Below, piece by piece: positions 25,158 through 43,680 of a stretch of 64,000 nucleotides of DNA; position 1 is the first letter of the stretch; every line of letters begins with the position of its first letter. The notes beneath the pieces were generated by a model. The model had not been told where the DNA came from and ran no database searches. It worked only from the letters and a program-made list of their open reading frames with translations. Location: assembly GCA_035464095.1 (NCBI GenBank), contig DATHSO010000191.1, forward strand, positions 1,009 through 65,008, read 5' to 3'. The translations under genes and the position numbers were made by a program. The DNA is from Candidatus Methylomirabilota bacterium (GTDB taxonomy: Bacteria > Acidobacteriota > Thermoanaerobaculia > Thermoanaerobaculales > Sulfomarinibacteraceae).

Positions 25158-26186
25158 ATGGACTTCGAGACCCTGAGCGTTATCTGGTTCTTCATCGCGG
25201 GCGTCCTGCTCGCCGGCTACGCAGTCCTCGACGGCTTCGACCTCGGCGTCGGCATCCTCCACCCCTTCGTCGCCCACGACGACACCGAGCGGCGGATCTC
25301 CATGAACTCCATCGGCCCGCTGTGGGACGGCAACGAGGTCTGGCTGGTGACCTTCGGCGGCGTCCTGTTCGCGGCCTTCCCCAACGCCTACGCCACGGTG
25401 TTCTCGGGCTTCTACGTCGCCTTCATGCTGCTGCTGTTCGCGCTCATCTTCCGGGCCGTGTCGTTGGAGTTCCGCAGCAAGAACCGGTCCCGTGCGTGGC
25501 GGCGGTTCTGGGACTGGGGCTTCTTCTCGGGCTCGGCGCTGGCCACCCTGCTGTTCGGGGTGGCGGTGGGCAACGCCGTCCACGGCCTGCCCCTGGACGC
25601 CGAGGGCAACGTCCTCGCCTCGGTCCTCGAGCAGCTCAACCCCTACGCCGTGCTGGTCGGGATCATGACCGTGTCGCTGTTCGCCCTCCACGGTGGCCTC
25701 TACCTCTACCTCAAGACCGAGGGCGAGTTCCAGCACCGGCTGCGCGACTGGATGTGGCGCTCGTGGGGCTTCTTCCTGGTCACCTTCATGCTGACCACGG
25801 TCTACACGGTGGCCGAGGTGCCGCGGGCGACCCTCAACTTCGAGCGCTTCCCGGCCCTGGTGGTGGTGGTGATCGCGGCCGTCCTGGCGGTGGCCAACAT
25901 CCCGCGCTGCCTGTACTGGGACCGCCCGGGGCAGGCCTTCATCTCGAGCATCGTGACCATCGTGTCCCTGGTGGCGCTGTTCGGGGCCGCCCTGTTCCCC
26001 AACCTGGTGACCGCGAGCAACGACCCGGCTCTGAGCGTGACGATCTACAACGCCGCCTCGAGCGCCAAGACCCTGGGCATCATGCTGCTGATCGCCGTCA
26101 TCGGGATGCCCTTCGTGCTCGCCTACACCGGCATCATCTACTGGACCTTCCGGGGCAAGGTCGAGCTCGGCGAGCACTCCTACTGA
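25158..26186 (+). CDS. cydB: Cytochrome bd ubiquinol oxidase subunit II
   Basis: 342 aa, starting 10 nt after cydA. It has the CydB-type N-terminus LSVIWFFIAGVLLAGYAVLDGFDLGVGIL. Confidence 0.9.
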   Translation: MDFETLSVIWFFIAGVLLAGYAVLDGFDLGVGILHPFVAHDDTERRISMNSIGPLWDGNEVWLVTFGGVLFAAFPNAYATVFSGFYVAFMLLLFALIFRAVSLEFRSKNRSRAWRRFWDWGFFSGSALATLLFGVAVGNAVHGLPLDAEGNVLASVLEQLNPYAVLVGIMTVSLFALHGGLYLYLKTEGEFQHRLRDWMWRSWGFFLVTFMLTTVYTVAEVPRATLNFERFPALVVVVIAAVLAVANIPRCLYWDRPGQAFISSIVTIVSLVALFGAALFPNLVTASNDPALSVTIYNAASSAKTLGIMLLIAVIGMPFVLAYTGIIYWTFRGKVELGEHSY

Positions 26187-26233
26187 CGATTCGTTGCCGG
26201 ACGGTTCGCCGGGCGAACCGCGCAACGAATCGT
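26186..26233 (+). terminator. GC-rich hairpin directly after the cydB stop
   Basis: ACGATTCGTTGC ... GCAACGAATCGT forms a 12-bp outer stem, with an inner GGTTCG/CGAACC stem. There is no T-tract, so intrinsic-terminator function is uncertain. Confidence 0.4.
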
Positions 26234-26311
26234 GGTCGGGCCGCGGCGGCCCGAAACGGGCCTCGTTTCCTGTAGCGGTCGCCGGCCCTGACTGCCCGGA
26301 CGGCAGCGACG

Positions 26312-26530
26312 ATGGCGGGGCGCTCGAGCGATCGATCCGCGCCCACTCCCGGGGGCTCCGGCCTCCGCCCGAGTCCGTTCAGTCCGGGTGGCGGCCGCGC
26401 CGGGATGCGGCCGGGGATGGTCGCCGTTGTCCAGACCGCCGGCCACTGGCCGAGTGGCACCCGCACGTCCATGCGCTGGTGTCGCGCGGCGGTTGGACGC
26501 AGGACGGGAGGCGGCAGATCGGTTTTCGGT
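26312..26530 (+). pseudogene. Frameshifted fragment of an IS91-family (Y2/HUH rolling-circle) transposase
   Basis: Frame 2 reads ..RPGMVAVVQTAG up to 26443. After a 2-nt offset, frame 1 reads LAEWHPHVHALVSRGGWTQDG (26446-26508). Joined, QTAG..LAEWHPHVHALVSRGGW resembles the conserved QTFG..L..HPHxHxLVxxGG block of IS91-like transposases as I remember it. No intact ORF is present. Confidence 0.45.
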
Positions 26531-41649: not shown

Positions 41650-41793
41650 GTGTTGGGATGGGTGCCAGGATGGGTGCCACATGTGTGCCAGGTAAAGCCC
41701 CATAACGTCGAAGCCGTCGTGCCGCTCGGCAGAGAGTCGGGCGGAGCCGTCGCCGGCGAGCCACGGAGCCCCGGTCGATGAGGTCTCCAAAGC

Positions 41794-43464
41794 TCAGGGG
41801 ACCGTGATCTGACCGCGCGCGAGCAGCTCCGGAGTGTTCGCTGCCGGGTCGTACATCCCCATGAATCGGTTCACAAGGTCGGTGTCGGTCGCTGCCAGGT
41901 CCATGACGAAAGGGTACGAGAGGCTCTGGAACAGGAGCTCCGCCGTCACCGTCAACGGCGCTGCGAATCCGGTCACGTCGACCAGGTACACGACGCGGTC
42001 AGCACCCCCCTGGAAGTCGTCATCCGCATCCGCGGATCCATAGACGCCGACGTCGGTGCCCGTAGCGGCGGCCTTGTCGAACCCGGCCGGCAGCAGGCGG
42101 TTGTCCTTCGCGTACGAATGCGCTCGCAGCAGGGTCTGGGTCACGTCACCCTCATACGTGAGCATGATCGGCTCGTAGATCTGGACCTGGTCGGGCGATG
42201 TGATCTCGGTGTGGTGCGGCTCGAACGTCGCGGGATCCGAGTCGGCGGCGTTGCCCTCGATCCTGCCGTCGCCCGTCGGCCTCCCCGACTCGAAGACGAG
42301 CGCCCCGTCACCATCAGTGACCCTGAGGTGCAGCCAGGCCCGCCGCGACGGAAGACCGCTCGGGAGCTTGTGGCCGGTTCGGTTGACGACGTCCACCATC
42401 ACCCTGAGGTCGACTCCCAGATCCGCCTCGACCGTCAGAGCCGCAGTGTCGTTCAGGAGCTGACTCCGGGTCCGCGAGATGGTGTCGTCGAGTTGCCATG
42501 CCTCCGCGGTCACTCCGAGATCGGCGGCGTTGGCTTTGAGCAGCTCCAGCACGAAACAGTTGCCGCCGGCGAAGTGGTGCTGCCAGAAGGGCTCACGAGC
42601 TGCGAGGCGGGGCGGACGGTTGCTGATCACGACAGCTCCCACGGCTAGCGGCAGGTGGCAGTCCTGGCAGGTCGCGGGGAATCCGCTGTGCTCCCACTCC
42701 AGGTAGGTCGTCTGCTCCGGGAAGTAGGGATCGACCGGCACCGGGTTCCCGCCGGCATCGAGAACGGGCGTGTACAGGGTGTGGCAGCTGCCGCAGTGGG
42801 CCGGGTCCTCGATCTGGGCGCCGAGGGCCGGGTCGAAGCCCGCGGCCTGCCGCATCGCGTTCCGCAGTGGGTCCTGATAGGGCCCGAAGATCGTGCGGTC
42901 CGGGGGCCAGGTCGAGGTGTCGATCTCGTAGCCGCCGGTGAAGCTGCTCGGGGTTCCCAGACCGGTCGGCTGGACCTGATGGCAGAGACAGCAGGATACG
43001 CCGTCCATCGCAGCCTCGTGCAGGGAATGTGCGGGGTCGAGAAACCCGGGACCGAGCACCTCGACCGCCGAGCCGTGGGTGATCGCTTGGTAGCGCGCCA
43101 TGCCCATGTGGCACCGGGTGCACTTGTCCTCGATGACCTCCTTCACGTGGGGAGCGCGAGCCACCTCCGAGCTGATCTTGGCTTGCCAGAGGGGGTCCTT
43201 GGCGGCGTTGGCCATCATGGTTGATCGCCAGTGCGCGTCATTCGAGACATCGTTGCCAACCGAGTCTTTGAGCCTGCTGTGGCAGGTGGCGCAGACTCCC
43301 GCCCCGGAGAAGTCCTCGGTTTCGAAGGTGCTGAGCGTTGTGGCCCCCTGGCCCGCAGCGGGACCCGGCCCGGTGCCGGTCTGGGCGCTGACGACCATCG
43401 GCGCGAGCCACAGGGCGAGGGGCGCGAAGGCGACGCGAAGGACCCGGGAGAGCAGTGTCGACAT
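41794..43464 (-). CDS. Periplasmic pentaheme c-type cytochrome
   Basis: I place the start at ATG 43464, with AGGAGGAG upstream. Signal peptide LRVAFAPLALWLAPMVVSAQ. There are five CxxCH motifs (CATCH, CTRCH, CCLCH, CGSCH, CQDCH). Confidence 0.8.
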   Translation of the reverse strand: MSTLLSRVLRVAFAPLALWLAPMVVSAQTGTGPGPAAGQGATTLSTFETEDFSGAGVCATCHSRLKDSVGNDVSNDAHWRSTMMANAAKDPLWQAKISSEVARAPHVKEVIEDKCTRCHMGMARYQAITHGSAVEVLGPGFLDPAHSLHEAAMDGVSCCLCHQVQPTGLGTPSSFTGGYEIDTSTWPPDRTIFGPYQDPLRNAMRQAAGFDPALGAQIEDPAHCGSCHTLYTPVLDAGGNPVPVDPYFPEQTTYLEWEHSGFPATCQDCHLPLAVGAVVISNRPPRLAAREPFWQHHFAGGNCFVLELLKANAADLGVTAEAWQLDDTISRTRSQLLNDTAALTVEADLGVDLRVMVDVVNRTGHKLPSGLPSRRAWLHLRVTDGDGALVFESGRPTGDGRIEGNAADSDPATFEPHHTEITSPDQVQIYEPIMLTYEGDVTQTLLRAHSYAKDNRLLPAGFDKAAATGTDVGVYGSADADDDFQGGADRVVYLVDVTGFAAPLTVTAELLFQSLSYPFVMDLAATDTDLVNRFMGMYDPAANTPELLARGQITVP

Positions 43465-43680
43465 GATCTCCTCCTGCCTCGGCCGGACCGGTACCGGCAT
43501 GCGAGGGCTTCGAAGTGTTCATTCAACATTGCCGCGTCGAGTTGAGAAAAACAATGATCGATCTAAATCATTTTTGCTCTGACGCATGCGCATCAGGGTT
43601 CTGAAGCCTGGCACCACAACGTACCATCGATACCATCTATGGTGGGACGACGGCGGCGGGTCCGGGATAGACTGCGGGGG

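What the first reader, a model, noticed from the sequence alone, without database searches (positions are those of the whole stretch)
26186..43600. About 17-kb compositionally distinct island bounded by a transposase relic and an AT-rich divergent promoter region
Seen in sequence:
- Genes from ~26.7 to 43.5 kb use noticeably more A/T-ending codons than the flanking core genes.
- By rough hand count, about 32 of the first ~243 codons of giant B end in A/T (CGA, GAT, GAA, CTT...). The figure is about 8 of the first ~237 codons of ppk2.
- ACG is common for Thr in the island; ACC dominates outside it.
- The left edge directly follows the cydB hairpin and carries a frameshifted IS91-like fragment and an orphan gene tail.
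- The right edge is the AT-rich 43465-43680 region.

Content of the island: the giant pair, the duplicated-module protein, the metalloprotease with a C-terminal sorting-type tail, the Lgt paralog and the pentaheme cytochrome.

Inference: this is a horizontally acquired block whose genes may work together.
Basis: partly seen in the sequence, partly recalled or inferred. Interest (0 to 1): 0.6.

Follow-up and report, generated by a model that had tools for sequence, protein, structure and literature searches.

The report
Mosaic neighbourhood, not a distinct island
The 17-kb stretch does not differ in composition from its surroundings and did not travel as one block; it is a patchwork holding two separately conserved gene pairs of unknown function, one (two giant proteins) exchanged between bacterial phyla and the other a secreted protease paired with its own lipid-attaching enzyme.

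Summary
Pooled GC3 is 0.912 inside, 0.934 to the left and 0.904 to the right (Mann-Whitney p=0.20). Tetranucleotide distance sits within same-size control blocks. The only real outlier is an IS200-like gene at 47.0-48.0 kb, outside the block.

The IS91 relic is real, but it lies in a 794-bp indel absent from a 93-95% identical relative that has the same cydB-A-B-C order. There is no tRNA, integrase, flanking repeat or empty site.

The six genes never co-occur elsewhere as a block. Only two pairs are conserved:
- B->A (27037-35481): adjacent in 74/74 loci, found in 384 species across at least six phyla. Here it nests among Actinomycetota copies inside an acidobacterial host, so it is a horizontally acquired 8.4-kb cassette whose nearest relatives have overlapping GC.
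- D->E: an HExxH protease with a conserved Cys-motif/TM/Arg C-terminal tail, followed by a divergent Lgt paralog in 7/7 contexts.

A lineage-specific palindrome (TCACCC-N4-GGGTGA) lies upstream of B and C here, and upstream of D in relatives. This hints at co-regulation.

Verdict: the island claim is largely refuted. The contents are interesting, but their functions are inferred, not shown.

The parts
26187..26232 (+). Inverted repeat (hairpin) directly after the cydB stop codon (TGA 26184-26186). A shorter, different inverted repeat occupies the same position in the close relative L089.
   Evidence: Read from the sequence (not tested with a fold or terminator scan). The L089 counterpart is shown.
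26198..26991 (.). Strain-specific 794-bp segment between cydB and A. It holds the IS91-type relic and most of the orphan ORF tail (26629-27003). The 93-95% identical relative L089 has 174 unrelated bases here.
   Evidence: blastn of L089 against the window.
26452..26496 (+). IS91-family HUH motif relic (EWHPHVHALVSRGGW) inside the frameshifted ORF 26194-26628.
   Evidence: Six-frame translation. Pfam Y2_Tnp E 0.0055, 17.2 bits, below the 20.9 cut-off.
27037..31599 (-). Gene A, 1520 aa, second gene of the B->A operon. Widespread uncharacterised family.
   Evidence: More than 480 homologues and 384 GTDB species. No Pfam, NCBIfam, PADLOC or PHROGs hit. AF2 model of residues 1-1200 has pLDDT 85.7 and pTM 0.83, with no convincing PDB or BFVD match (best E 8e-4, TM-score at most 0.2).
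31603..35346 (-). Gene B, 1247 aa, first gene of the B->A operon. There are 3 nt between its stop and A's ATG. Layout: beta-rich N-terminal part, helical bundle at about 770-905, then a strongly conserved C-terminal domain of long amphipathic beta-hairpins.
   Evidence: 742 homologues. B lies immediately upstream of A in 74/74 loci; the gap is 3-46 nt in 73 of them and 1995 nt in one. AF2 model pLDDT 65.7. Only weak Foldseek hits to MTP, lipovitellin, TamB and porins. Bacillus plasmid homologue is 37% identical over the C-terminal domain.
27037..35481 (-). The discrete B->A cassette: the exact extent of nucleotide homology (81.4% over 8482 nt) to relative L082, whose flanks on both sides are unrelated.
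   Evidence: blastn and gene context.
35465..35480 (.). Palindromic operator-like site TCACCCAAATGGGTGA, 119-134 nt upstream of B's ATG. It forms the first 16 nt of the segment shared with L082.
35585..35600 (.). Second copy (TCACCCATTTAGGTGA, 1 mismatch), about 260 nt upstream of C's ATG. With the first copy it forms a 23-nt, 96% complementary inverted repeat (35460-35482 / 35583-35605).
35863..38064 (+). Gene C, 733 aa, with an internally duplicated module. Member of a large uncharacterised family. Not linked to A-B or D-E elsewhere.
   Evidence: Duplication. 1062 representative clusters at E<=1e-3. No Pfam or PDB hit. 96% identical copy in L089. Absent from all other loci.
38382..40784 (+). 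Gene D, 800 aa: Sec signal peptide, thermolysin-like propeptide region, HEFGH...E gluzincin site, then a C-terminal tripartite tail.
   Evidence: Translation. Profile hit to the thermolysin precursor propeptide, E 4.7e-5. 68 homologues. Alignment A2.
40650..40781 (+). D's C-terminal tail: INESGECECTCGASAS, about 20 hydrophobic residues, then RLRRKRR. The middle Cys (C765, 40674-40676) is conserved in at least 90% of 30 homologues.
   Evidence: No match to any of NCBIfam's C-terminal sorting-signal models; only two weak, unrelated hits far below cut-off.
40792..41649 (+). Gene E, a divergent Lgt paralog. The likely start is GTG 40792, 7 nt after D's stop.
   Evidence: Pfam LGT 125.7 bits, but below the NCBIfam equivalog cut-off (74.3 vs 118.9). 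Follows D in 6/6 other contexts. Active-site comparison with E. coli Lgt.
41794..43500 (-). Gene F, a pentahaem c-type cytochrome (5 CxxCH) with a signal peptide. Not linked to any other block gene elsewhere.
43501..43638 (.). AT-rich divergent intergenic region between F and the alaX-like gene (GC 0.48). Ordinary for short intergenic regions of this window.

Best explanation
The 26.2-43.6 kb region is an ordinary, compositionally unremarkable stretch of chromosome. The host is an acidobacterium related to Ca. Sulfomarinibacteraceae (Thermoanaerobaculia). The region is a mosaic of units with independent evolutionary histories.

1. **The B->A operon (27037-35481).** This is a self-contained 8.4-kb two-gene cassette encoding two giant proteins with no recognisable domains. 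The pair occurs in hundreds of species from at least six phyla and on megaplasmids. It is always in B-then-A order, almost always a few nucleotides apart, and sits in unrelated contexts. This lineage most likely acquired it from an Acidimicrobiia-like actinobacterium. The nearest actinobacterial A genes have GC 0.63-0.73, overlapping the host's, so no compositional scar would be expected.
2. **Gene C.** A member of a separate large uncharacterised family.
3. **The D->E operon.** D is a secreted thermolysin-like zinc protease. Its C-terminus has the tripartite layout of Cys-type sorting signals: a Cys motif, a TM helix and an Arg-rich tail. E is a dedicated, divergent Lgt-family transferase. 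I infer that E lipidates the conserved Cys of D to anchor it to the membrane or cell surface.
4. **Gene F.** An unlinked pentahaem cytochrome.

The IS91 relic is a later, strain-level insertion into the cydB-A spacer.

In this lineage the B-A promoter and the C promoter share a palindromic operator-like site, as do the D-E and amidohydrolase promoters in relatives. The units therefore appear wired into one local regulon.

**Shown:** composition, gene linkage statistics, cassette boundaries, phylogenetic placement, motif distribution.
**Inferred:** donor identity, Lgt-paralog function, co-regulation.
For: **Composition**
- No GC3, codon or tetranucleotide shift.

**B-A as a unit**
- 384 species encode an A relative.
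- B lies immediately upstream in 74/74 informative loci; the gap is 3-46 nt in 73 of them and 1995 nt in one.
- There is no other conserved neighbour, and none of C-F or cydAB is nearby.
- Nucleotide homology to L082 runs exactly from A's stop codon to the operator upstream of B, with unrelated flanks.
- Distant B+A pairs sit on Bacillus, Rhizobium, Cupriavidus and Streptomyces megaplasmids or chromids.

**Horizontal transfer**
- The NJ tree puts the window, L089 and L082 inside the Acidimicrobiia/Actinomycetota clade.
- Vicinamibacterales and another acidobacterial copy sit in a distant clade.
- A Verrucomicrobiota copy is nested in Actinomycetota.
- The host label comes from the 88%/93-95% relative, GCA_035466355.1.
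- Nearest actinobacterial A genes have GC 0.63-0.73, against 0.72 here.

**IS91 relic as a late indel:**

**D-E**
- D is followed by an LGT-domain gene in 6/6 other contexts, at 42-80% identity; one has the order D-Lgt-D'.
- The tail is conserved in 30/30 homologues.
- In the paralog family, the equivalents of R143, G154, Y235, R239 and E243 are invariant. The N146 equivalent is an invariant Cys, and H103 is absent.
- The enzyme that lipidates the invariant Cys of MYXO-CTERM is still unknown. It has been proposed to be 'Lgt-like' (PMC11980579).

**Operator**
- Two sites in 64 kb, both in the B-C spacer, against 0.27 expected by chance.
- Exact copies occur only in the four related contigs, always intergenic: upstream of B, D or the amidohydrolase gene.
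- The motif is absent upstream of B in other phyla.
Against: - Only 64 kb of the genome is available as a compositional baseline. The window itself drifts from GC 0.73 (left) to 0.68 (right).
- The tree is neighbour-joining without support values, and MAG taxonomy labels can be wrong.
- The closest relative's contig ends inside the C-D spacer, so conservation of D-F in place is unseen.
- B-A and D-E lie within about 6-7 kb of each other both here and in the 81%-identity lineage (L082/L083), and they share the operator. They may therefore have been neighbours, and functionally tied, since the common ancestor of these lineages.
- C and D do show an elevated ACG share (p=4e-7).
- No biochemical evidence exists for any of the four unknown proteins. 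The window lacks the operator upstream of D.
Confidence: 0.72

Rival explanations
1. A single ~17-kb genomic island carrying A-F was acquired in one horizontal event. It is bounded on the left by an IS91 transposase relic and on the right by the AT-rich region, and it is still compositionally distinct from the core.
For: - The IS91 HUH relic and an orphan ORF lie at the left edge.
- B has more A/T-ending codons than ppk2 or cydAB.
- The ACG share is higher inside the block.
- B-A and D-E are also near each other in a second lineage.
Against: - There is no GC3, codon or k-mer shift against both flanks.
- The IS91 segment is a strain-level indel inside an otherwise colinear cydB-A junction.
- The six genes never co-occur elsewhere.
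- A-B and D-E have different phyletic distributions.
- C and F are missing from the L082/L083 lineage, where B-A is inverted relative to D-E and separated from it by other genes.
- No tRNA, integrase or flanking direct repeats were found.
- No cydB-alaX empty site appears in 80 cydB loci.
Confidence: 0.07
2. Nothing here was horizontally acquired. The whole region, B-A included, is vertically inherited. The patchy distribution of B-A reflects an ancient origin with many losses.
For: - Composition is indistinguishable from the flanks.
- The closest relative has the same arrangement.
- No mobility genes are attached to the cassette in most contexts.
Against: - A is 60-69% identical over its full length to Acidimicrobiia and Gaiellaceae copies, but only 42-43% identical to other Acidobacteriota copies, and it nests within the actinobacterial clade.
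- Other cross-phylum nestings exist: Verrucomicrobiota inside Actinomycetota, and Lysobacterales with Burkholderiales.
- Family members occur on megaplasmids.
- The cassette has different flanks in an 81%-identical relative.
Confidence: 0.1
3. B-A, C and D-E form one functional system in this lineage, for example an envelope or secreted-protein machinery. It was assembled by recruiting separate modules under one regulator, rather than by co-transfer.
For: - The TCACCC-N4-GGGTGA palindrome is shared upstream of B, C, D (in relatives) and the amidohydrolase gene.
- B-A and D-E are close together in two lineages despite rearrangement.
- B-A and C-D-E are arranged divergently around the two operator copies.
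Against: - Outside this lineage, no linkage exists between A-B and any of C, D or E in 80 loci, nor between D-E and A, B or C in four other contexts.
- The motif's function is untested.
- No operator lies upstream of D in the window.
- A and B lack signal peptides, while D and F have them.
Confidence: 0.25

Closest known systems
Classical genomic islands (tRNA- or integrase-associated, compositionally deviant)
   Same: The region contains at least one horizontally acquired segment (B-A) and a transposase relic nearby.
   Different: There is no compositional deviation, tRNA, integrase or direct repeats. The block is not transferred as a unit, and the IS relic is a later indel.
Cys-containing C-terminal sorting signals: MYXO-CTERM/myxosortase MrtX, and the JDVT-CTERM/MrtJ two-gene neighbourhoods (Haft preprint 10.1101/2023.06.07.544157; mBio 2025, PMC11980579)
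   Same: D has a signal peptide and a tripartite C-terminal tail: a short motif with a near-invariant Cys, a TM helix and an Arg-rich end. Like JDVT-CTERM/MrtJ, it forms a conserved two-gene 'client plus membrane enzyme' neighbourhood.
   Different: The motif (IN-E-S-G-x-C-E-C-x-C-x-A-S-A) matches no NCBIfam sorting-signal model. The partner is an Lgt-family transferase, not a CPBP intramembrane protease. No CPBP gene appears in the seven neighbourhoods. The taxa are Acidobacteriota, Bacteroidota and Ignavibacteriota rather than Myxococcota.
Prolipoprotein diacylglyceryl transferase Lgt (E. coli, PDB 5AZB/5AZC)
   Same: E matches Pfam LGT across the full domain. The equivalents of R143, G154, Y235, R239 and E243 are invariant in the paralog family.
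   Different: E scores below the NCBIfam equivalog cut-offs. H103 is absent. The N146 equivalent is an invariant Cys, and the E151 equivalent is Cys or Asp. E is always encoded directly after one specific client gene. That client has no N-terminal lipobox Cys in the window copy or in the 30-homologue consensus.
Thermolysin-like and fungalysin-like gluzincins (M4/M36) with an FTP/PepSY propeptide
   Same: D has HEFGH plus a downstream Glu (HEGMSD), and profile similarity to the thermolysin precursor's propeptide region (E 4.7e-5).
   Different: No Pfam Peptidase_M4 or M36 hit. D has an extra C-terminal beta-rich region and the membrane tail.
IS91-family (HUH Y2) transposases
   Same: The relic keeps the HPHVHALV..GG motif.
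   Different: Only about 40 recognisable residues remain, in a frameshifted ORF. The Pfam score is below the cut-off.
Large lipid-transfer or lipid-binding beta-sheet proteins (MTP, lipovitellin, TamB), as a lead for B only
   Same: The order is beta-rich, then helical, then a large amphipathic beta-sheet region. These are the top Foldseek PDB hits (E 3e-5).
   Different: TM-scores are at most 0.08 and probability at most 0.35. The model is low-confidence in exactly that region, and there is no sequence similarity. This is a lead, not a classification.

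Membership tests
Genomic island (horizontally acquired block) | Composition (GC3, codon usage, k-mers) deviates from the surrounding genome | tested here: not met
   GC3 is 0.912 inside vs 0.934 and 0.904 in the flanks; MWU p=0.20. 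Tetranucleotide L1 distance of 0.156 lies within the control range 0.103-0.203. Only 64 kb was available as a baseline.
Genomic island (horizontally acquired block) | Mobility gene, tRNA or direct repeats at the borders | tested here: not met
   No tRNA in the window. No flanking direct repeats. The IS91 relic lies in a 794-bp strain-level indel, not at a conserved border.
Genomic island (horizontally acquired block) | Present or absent as a block among close relatives (an empty site exists) | tested here: inconclusive
   The closest relative, L089, has cydB-A-B-C in the same place. In 80 cydB loci (62-86% identity), synteny is lost on both sides and no cydB-alaX junction is seen.
Genomic island (horizontally acquired block) | The genes of the block co-occur in other genomes | tested here: not met
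   Only A+B (74/74) and D+E (7/7) co-occur. C, D, E and F never lie within 10 kb of A.
Genomic island (horizontally acquired block) | Phylogeny incongruent with host taxonomy | tested here: met
   Met for the B-A cassette only. The window clade nests in Actinomycetota, while other Acidobacteriota copies are distant (NJ tree, no bootstrap).
Cys-type C-terminal sorting signal (MYXO-CTERM-like) | Tripartite tail at the extreme C-terminus: short motif with invariant Cys, TM helix, basic cluster | tested here: met
   Present in 30/30 aligned D homologues. C765 is conserved in at least 90%.
Cys-type C-terminal sorting signal (MYXO-CTERM-like) | Matches a curated sorting-signal model (TIGR03901 MYXO-CTERM, JDVT-, CGP- or SYNERG-CTERM etc.) | tested here: not met
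   An NCBIfam scan of the 56-aa tail at E<=10 returned no sorting-signal model.
Cys-type C-terminal sorting signal (MYXO-CTERM-like) | Dedicated CPBP-family sorting protease (myxosortase) partner | tested here: not met
   None of the seven D neighbourhoods contains a CPBP/Abi-domain gene. The conserved neighbour is LGT. Genome-wide presence could not be checked.
Cys-type C-terminal sorting signal (MYXO-CTERM-like) | Cys lipidation and removal of the TM tail | not testable with these tools
   Needs mass spectrometry or lipid labelling.
Lgt (prolipoprotein diacylglyceryl transferase) | Pfam PF01790 domain above the gathering score | tested here: met
   125.7 bits against a cut-off of 24.9.
Lgt (prolipoprotein diacylglyceryl transferase) | Equivalog-level score (TIGR00544 / NF000778) | tested here: not met
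   74.3 vs 118.9 bits, and 80.8 vs 334 bits.
Lgt (prolipoprotein diacylglyceryl transferase) | Residues reported as essential or important in E. coli Lgt (own knowledge: Y26, H103, R143, N146, E151, G154, R239, E243) | tested here: inconclusive
   The equivalents of R143, G154, Y235, R239 and E243 are invariant in 7 paralogs. N146 is replaced by an invariant Cys, E151 by Cys or Asp, and H103 is absent. Y26 lies outside the alignment.
IS91-family transposase | Intact HUH/Y2 transposase ORF matching PF04986 | tested here: not met
   Only a 20-residue match, 17.2 bits against a cut-off of 20.9, in a frameshifted ORF.
Known anti-phage defence systems, as a candidate for the B-A pair | Match to a PADLOC model or a recognisable nuclease, ATPase or other effector domain | tested here: not met
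   No PADLOC, Pfam or NCBIfam hit. Conservation is unusually high: about 50% identity across phyla over 1500 aa.
Phage tail module (tape measure plus tip protein), as a candidate for the B-A pair | Significant sequence or structure match to tail proteins, or presence in phage genomes | tested here: not met
   PHROGs gives only a coiled-coil hit to tape measure, E 5e-4. BFVD has nothing at E<=1e-3. tblastn against 50,697 phage records found no match.

The most novel reading that the evidence does not exclude
Two undescribed systems sit side by side.

**(a) D-E as a new C-terminal protein-anchoring system.** A dedicated Lgt paralog would diacylglycerylate the near-invariant Cys of a C-terminal tripartite signal. 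That would be a natural example of the 'Lgt-like' lipidating enzyme so far only postulated for MYXO-CTERM-type signals. Here it has a single genetically linked client, and its active site is remodelled (the N146 equivalent is Cys), perhaps to accept a substrate in inverted membrane topology.

**(b) B-A as an inter-phylum mobile, highly conserved two-protein machine** with folds not represented in the PDB. B's C-terminal domain of long amphipathic beta-hairpins hints at membrane or lipid association.
Probability: 0.3. Interest if true: 0.75.

Novelty: new variant of a known kind. Interest (0 to 1): 0.42.

Why it matters
**As a genomic island, the finding does not hold up.** That is useful in itself. 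In a 70% GC genome, a few-percent difference in A/T-ending codons between two genes says nothing about acquisition. A transposase fragment next to a block can be a later passenger.

**What matters is what the block contains.**

1. **The D-E pair.** The enzyme that lipidates the invariant Cys of MYXO-CTERM-type C-terminal sorting signals is an acknowledged unknown (PMC11980579). A protease with such a tail, always followed by its own divergent Lgt, gives a compact two-gene system in which that chemistry could be tested directly.
2. **The B-A pair.** Two giant proteins are about 50% identical across phyla and present in hundreds of species and on megaplasmids. They have no Pfam, NCBIfam or PDB counterpart. 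That is a sizeable blind spot in bacterial gene annotation.
3. **The shared operator.** It shows how a horizontally acquired cassette may be wired into a host regulon.

Tried and rejected
**Domain and family searches**
- Pfam, NCBIfam, PADLOC and PHROGs on A, B, C and D gave nothing. The only hits were coiled-coil noise in B.
- PDB sequence and profile searches for A, B and C gave nothing meaningful.

**Structure searches**
- Foldseek of the confident A model against PDB and BFVD returned only generic beta-sandwich hits (arrestin, FN3, tip protein J) with TM-scores at most 0.2. I rejected these as classification.
- Foldseek of the B model returned MTP, lipovitellin, TamB and porins at TM-scores at most 0.08, in a low-confidence region. 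I kept this only as a lead.

**Ideas for B-A that were rejected**
- Defence system: no PADLOC or effector domains, and conservation is too high.
- Phage-tail origin: no phage record matches.

**Tests for mobility and insertion**
- Empty-site test with cydB in metagenomes: 80 loci, but synteny is lost on both sides, so it is uninformative.
- tRNA adjacency of B-A in 60 loci: not systematic.
- Flanking direct or inverted repeats around the cassette: none, apart from the operator pair.

**Other checks**
- Conserved third gene next to B-A: none. The only clusters reflect lineage-level synteny, e.g. in Micropruina.
- Operator upstream of B in other phyla: absent.
- Operator upstream of D in the window: absent.
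- The 682-aa gene upstream of D in L083 is not a detectable C homologue.
- Terminator and promoter scan of 35.2-43.8 kb: uninformative.
- Known MYXO-CTERM-type models for D's tail: no match.

Full report
**1. Layout.**
The window is about 70% GC. GC drifts from about 0.73 on the left to about 0.68 on the right, with a minimum of 0.63-0.65 at 46-50 kb. I called genes by third-position GC and annotated them with Pfam.

| Gene | Coordinates | Notes |
|---|---|---|
| ppk2 | 3100-4617 | left flank |
| cydA | 23621-25147 | left flank |
| cydB | 25158-26186 | left flank |
| spacer | 26187-27036 | 850 bp |
| A | 27037-31599 (-) | 1520 aa |
| B | 31603-35346 (-) | 1247 aa |
| C | 35863-38064 (+) | 733 aa |
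| D | 38382-40784 (+) | 800 aa |
| E | 40792-41649 (+) | Lgt paralog |
| F | 41794-43500 (-) | five CxxCH |
| alaX-like | 43639-44880 | right flank |
| unknown | 44955-46922 (-) | 655 aa |
| IS200-like Y1 transposase | 47012-48019 | followed by sugar-metabolism genes |

The cydB protein is encoded exactly on an ENA metagenome contig.

**2. Is the block compositionally distinct? No.**
But they contrast two genes.
- Per-gene GC3 in the block is 0.86-0.93. Flank genes range from 0.83 to 0.98.
- Pooled GC3 is 0.912 (block), 0.934 (left) and 0.904 (right).
- Mann-Whitney tests give p=0.20 against all other genes and p=0.66 against the right flank.
- A and B are the two genes closest to the window's overall synonymous codon usage.
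- The block's tetranucleotide distance from the rest (0.156) lies inside the range of 23 same-size control blocks (0.103-0.203).
- The largest 5-kb deviation is at 46-52 kb, around the IS200-like gene (GC 0.605, GC3 0.73). That is outside the block.
- The ACG-for-Thr remark is partly true. The ACG share is higher inside (p=2e-5), but C and D drive it (p=4e-7). A+B do not differ significantly (p=0.08).

**3. The edges.**
- The spacer after cydB starts with a hairpin (26187-32).
- It contains an IS91-type HUH relic (EWHPHVHALVSRGGW, 26452-96). The Pfam Y2_Tnp hit is weak and below the cut-off.
- A contig from a Ca. Sulfomarinibacteraceae MAG (L089, GCA_035466355.1) is 93-95% identical and colinear with window 25991-38369. 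It carries cydB, A, B and C.
- The exception is window 26198-26991, which L089 replaces with 174 unrelated bases.
- The relic is therefore a strain-level indel in the cydB-A spacer, not the scar of block acquisition.
- The right edge (43501-43638, GC 0.48) is real. But other short intergenic regions are as AT-rich or more so, at GC 0.38-0.40.
- The window has no tRNA. No flanking repeats bracket the block.

**4. Do the genes travel together? Only as two pairs.**
- A has more than 480 full-length homologues at 50-82% identity.
- A scan of one genome per GTDB species found 384 species with a relative. They span Actinomycetota, Pseudomonadota, Verrucomicrobiota, Myxococcota, Acidobacteriota and Cyanobacteria.
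- In the 80 loci fetched (10 kb each side), B lies immediately upstream of A on the same strand in all 74 where the contig allows. The gap is 3-46 nt in 73 of them and 1995 nt in one.
- No other window gene is present, and no third gene is conserved beyond lineage-level synteny.
- Annotated contexts are unrelated in Actinokineospora alba, Lysobacter arenosi and an Acidimicrobiia chromosome.
- An 81%-identical relative (L082) shares nucleotide homology with the window exactly from A's stop codon (27037) to 35481. Its flanks on both sides are unrelated.
- More distant B+A pairs, all annotated 'hypothetical', sit on megaplasmids or chromids of Bacillus, Rhizobium, Cupriavidus and Streptomyces. 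None occur in phages.
- tRNA adjacency is not systematic.

**5. Horizontal origin of B-A.**
- L089's source label places the host in Acidobacteriota, class Thermoanaerobaculia.
- A neighbour-joining tree of 66 full-length A proteins puts the window, L089 and L082 inside an Acidimicrobiia/Actinomycetota clade.
- The Vicinamibacterales copy and another acidobacterial copy fall in a distant clade.
- Other cross-phylum nestings are visible.
- The nearest actinobacterial A genes have GC 0.63-0.73, against 0.72 here. Transfer would therefore leave no compositional trace.
- Caveats: the tree has no bootstrap, and the taxonomy comes from MAG labels.

**6. The second pair, D-E.**
- D has only 68 homologues. 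The named ones are Acidobacteriota, Ignavibacteriota and Bacteroidota MAGs, plus one distant (28% identity) Massilia protein.
- In six further contexts (42-80% identity) D is always followed directly by an LGT-domain gene; one has the order D-Lgt-D'. tblastn shows the first three of these genes are 56-75% identical to E.
- D has a Sec-type signal peptide, profile similarity to the thermolysin propeptide region (E 4.7e-5), and an HEFGH...HEGMSD zinc site.
- All 30 aligned homologues share a tail: IN-E/D-S/T-G-x-C-E/D-C-x-C-x-A-S-A, about 20 hydrophobic residues, then an Arg/Lys cluster. One Cys is near-invariant.
- This is the tripartite layout of MYXO-CTERM-type signals, but no NCBIfam sorting-signal model matches it.
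- E matches Pfam LGT strongly but falls below the Lgt equivalog cut-offs.
- Aligned to E. coli Lgt, the paralog family keeps the equivalents of R143, G154, Y235, R239 and E243. It has an invariant Cys at the N146 position and lacks H103.
- Homologue starts indicate that E begins at GTG 40792, 7 nt after D's stop.
- Haft's preprint on Cys-bearing C-terminal signals does not mention Lgt.
- My inference: E lipidates D's C-terminal Cys. This is not shown.

**7. C and F.**
- C carries an internal duplication.
- It belongs to a large uncharacterised family: 1062 clusters at E<=1e-3.
- It has no Pfam or PDB match.
- C is present in L089. It is absent from the L082/L083 lineage and from every other locus.
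- F is not linked to anything elsewhere.

**8. A link after all: a shared operator-like palindrome.**
- The B-C spacer holds two copies of TCACCC-N4-GGGTGA, at 35465-80 (exact) and 35585-600 (one mismatch).
- These are the only two hits in 64 kb, against 0.27 expected by chance.
- Exact copies occur in only four of the 171 loci that are not the window's own contig, all close relatives. Every copy is intergenic:
  - upstream of B (L082, L089);
  - about 200 nt upstream of D (L083, L084);
  - upstream of the amidohydrolase gene that follows A in L082 and L083.
- The motif is absent upstream of B in other phyla and upstream of D in the window.
- In the L082/L083 lineage the order is: operator, B->A->, <-amidohydrolase, operator, <-399 aa, 199 aa->, 682 aa->, operator, D->E->.
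- B-A is therefore inverted relative to D-E compared with the window, and different genes lie between them.
- So the two pairs have been neighbours and probably co-regulated in this lineage. They are still separable units elsewhere.

**9. What are A and B?**
- AF2 with a custom alignment gives a confident model for A residues 1-1200 (pLDDT 85.7, pTM 0.83). The model for B is mediocre (pLDDT 65.7).
- Foldseek against PDB and BFVD finds only generic beta-sandwich similarity for A.
- For B it finds weak, low-TM hits to MTP, lipovitellin, TamB and porins. These reflect the long amphipathic beta-hairpins of its most conserved C-terminal domain.
- Neither protein has a signal peptide.
- My tentative mechanistic guess, at low confidence (about 0.2), is a two-protein complex in which B's C-terminal sheet associates with membrane or lipid.
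- Defence-system and phage-tail readings were tested and not supported.

**10.
- A metagenome scan with cydB returned 80 loci at 62-86% identity.
- cydA precedes cydB wherever the contig extends upstream. No other window gene from either flank appears within 10 kb, apart from one weak (36% identity) match to the short-chain dehydrogenase in one locus.
- No cydB-alaX junction exists among them.
- Synteny has decayed on both sides, so the test neither supports nor excludes an insertion.

**11. Verdict.**
- The compositional island is not real, and its proposed borders are incidental.
- The true horizontally acquired unit is the 8.4-kb B-A cassette.
- The rest are neighbours with their own histories, one of which (D-E) is a coherent and possibly new protein-anchoring pair.
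- A shared operator gives limited support to the idea that some of these genes act together in this lineage.

Noticed in passing
window 47012-48019 (+): An IS200-like Y1 transposase gene (Pfam Y1_Tnp 5.9e-10; 335 aa) is the real compositional outlier of the window. It has GC 0.605, GC3 0.73 and a codon-usage distance of 1.35, against 0.44 or less for every other full-length gene (only the 123-codon orphan ORF at 26629-27003 reaches 0.75). It sits in the lowest-GC stretch (46-50 kb).
   Followed up: partly
window 1-64000: There is a steady GC gradient, about 0.73 in the first 16 kb falling to about 0.68 after 30 kb.
   Followed up: partly
L087 8001-13982 (GCA_964495085.1): Two D paralogs flank a single Lgt paralog (D-Lgt-D'). 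This suggests one transferase can serve more than one client.
   Followed up: no
L084 5653-6840 and L086 9623-10669: A T6SS_Tle1-like_cat (lipase-like) gene lies near D-E in two unrelated contexts. L084 also has TIR_2 and NlpC/P60 genes directly upstream of D.
   Followed up: no
L083 5592-6791 (-): A 399-aa protein with a weak C-terminal HTH match (GerE, E 0.004) lies next to one copy of the TCACCC-N4-GGGTGA palindrome. It is a candidate binding factor. No homologue exists in the window.
   Followed up: no
L174 3463-11108 (Bacillus tropicus plasmid pBEMB20-1) and L173 2506-11474 (Rhizobium plasmid): In Bacillus the upstream 1093-aa protein is a B homologue that keeps B's C-terminal beta domain (37% identity) and appears to lack the long helical insert. 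In Rhizobium two shorter genes precede the A-like gene and may be a split B; I did not compare them with B.
   Followed up: partly
L171 2769-3866 (Lysobacter arenosi): A Zot-family (filamentous-phage-type) gene and several small hypothetical genes lie just upstream of the B-A pair. This may mark a mobile region in that genome.
   Followed up: no
window 44955-46922 (-), 7655-10558 (+) and 73-1902 (+): Three further sizeable ORFs (655, 967 and 609 aa) have no Pfam hit. The 655-aa protein has an N-terminal TM segment. The 609-aa ORF has an odd codon profile (GC3 0.83, distance 0.44) and may be mis-framed.
   Followed up: no
window 38065-38381: The C-D spacer (317 bp, GC 0.70) lacks the palindrome found about 200 nt upstream of D in L083 and L084. 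D-E here may be read through from the C promoter.
   Followed up: partly
window vs ENA contig k141_1141816: The ENA contig that encodes the identical cydB protein is 61,581 bp and its coordinates are offset by about 1,995. The 64-kb window therefore cannot come from that record as stored and must derive from another assembly of the same organism.
   Followed up: no
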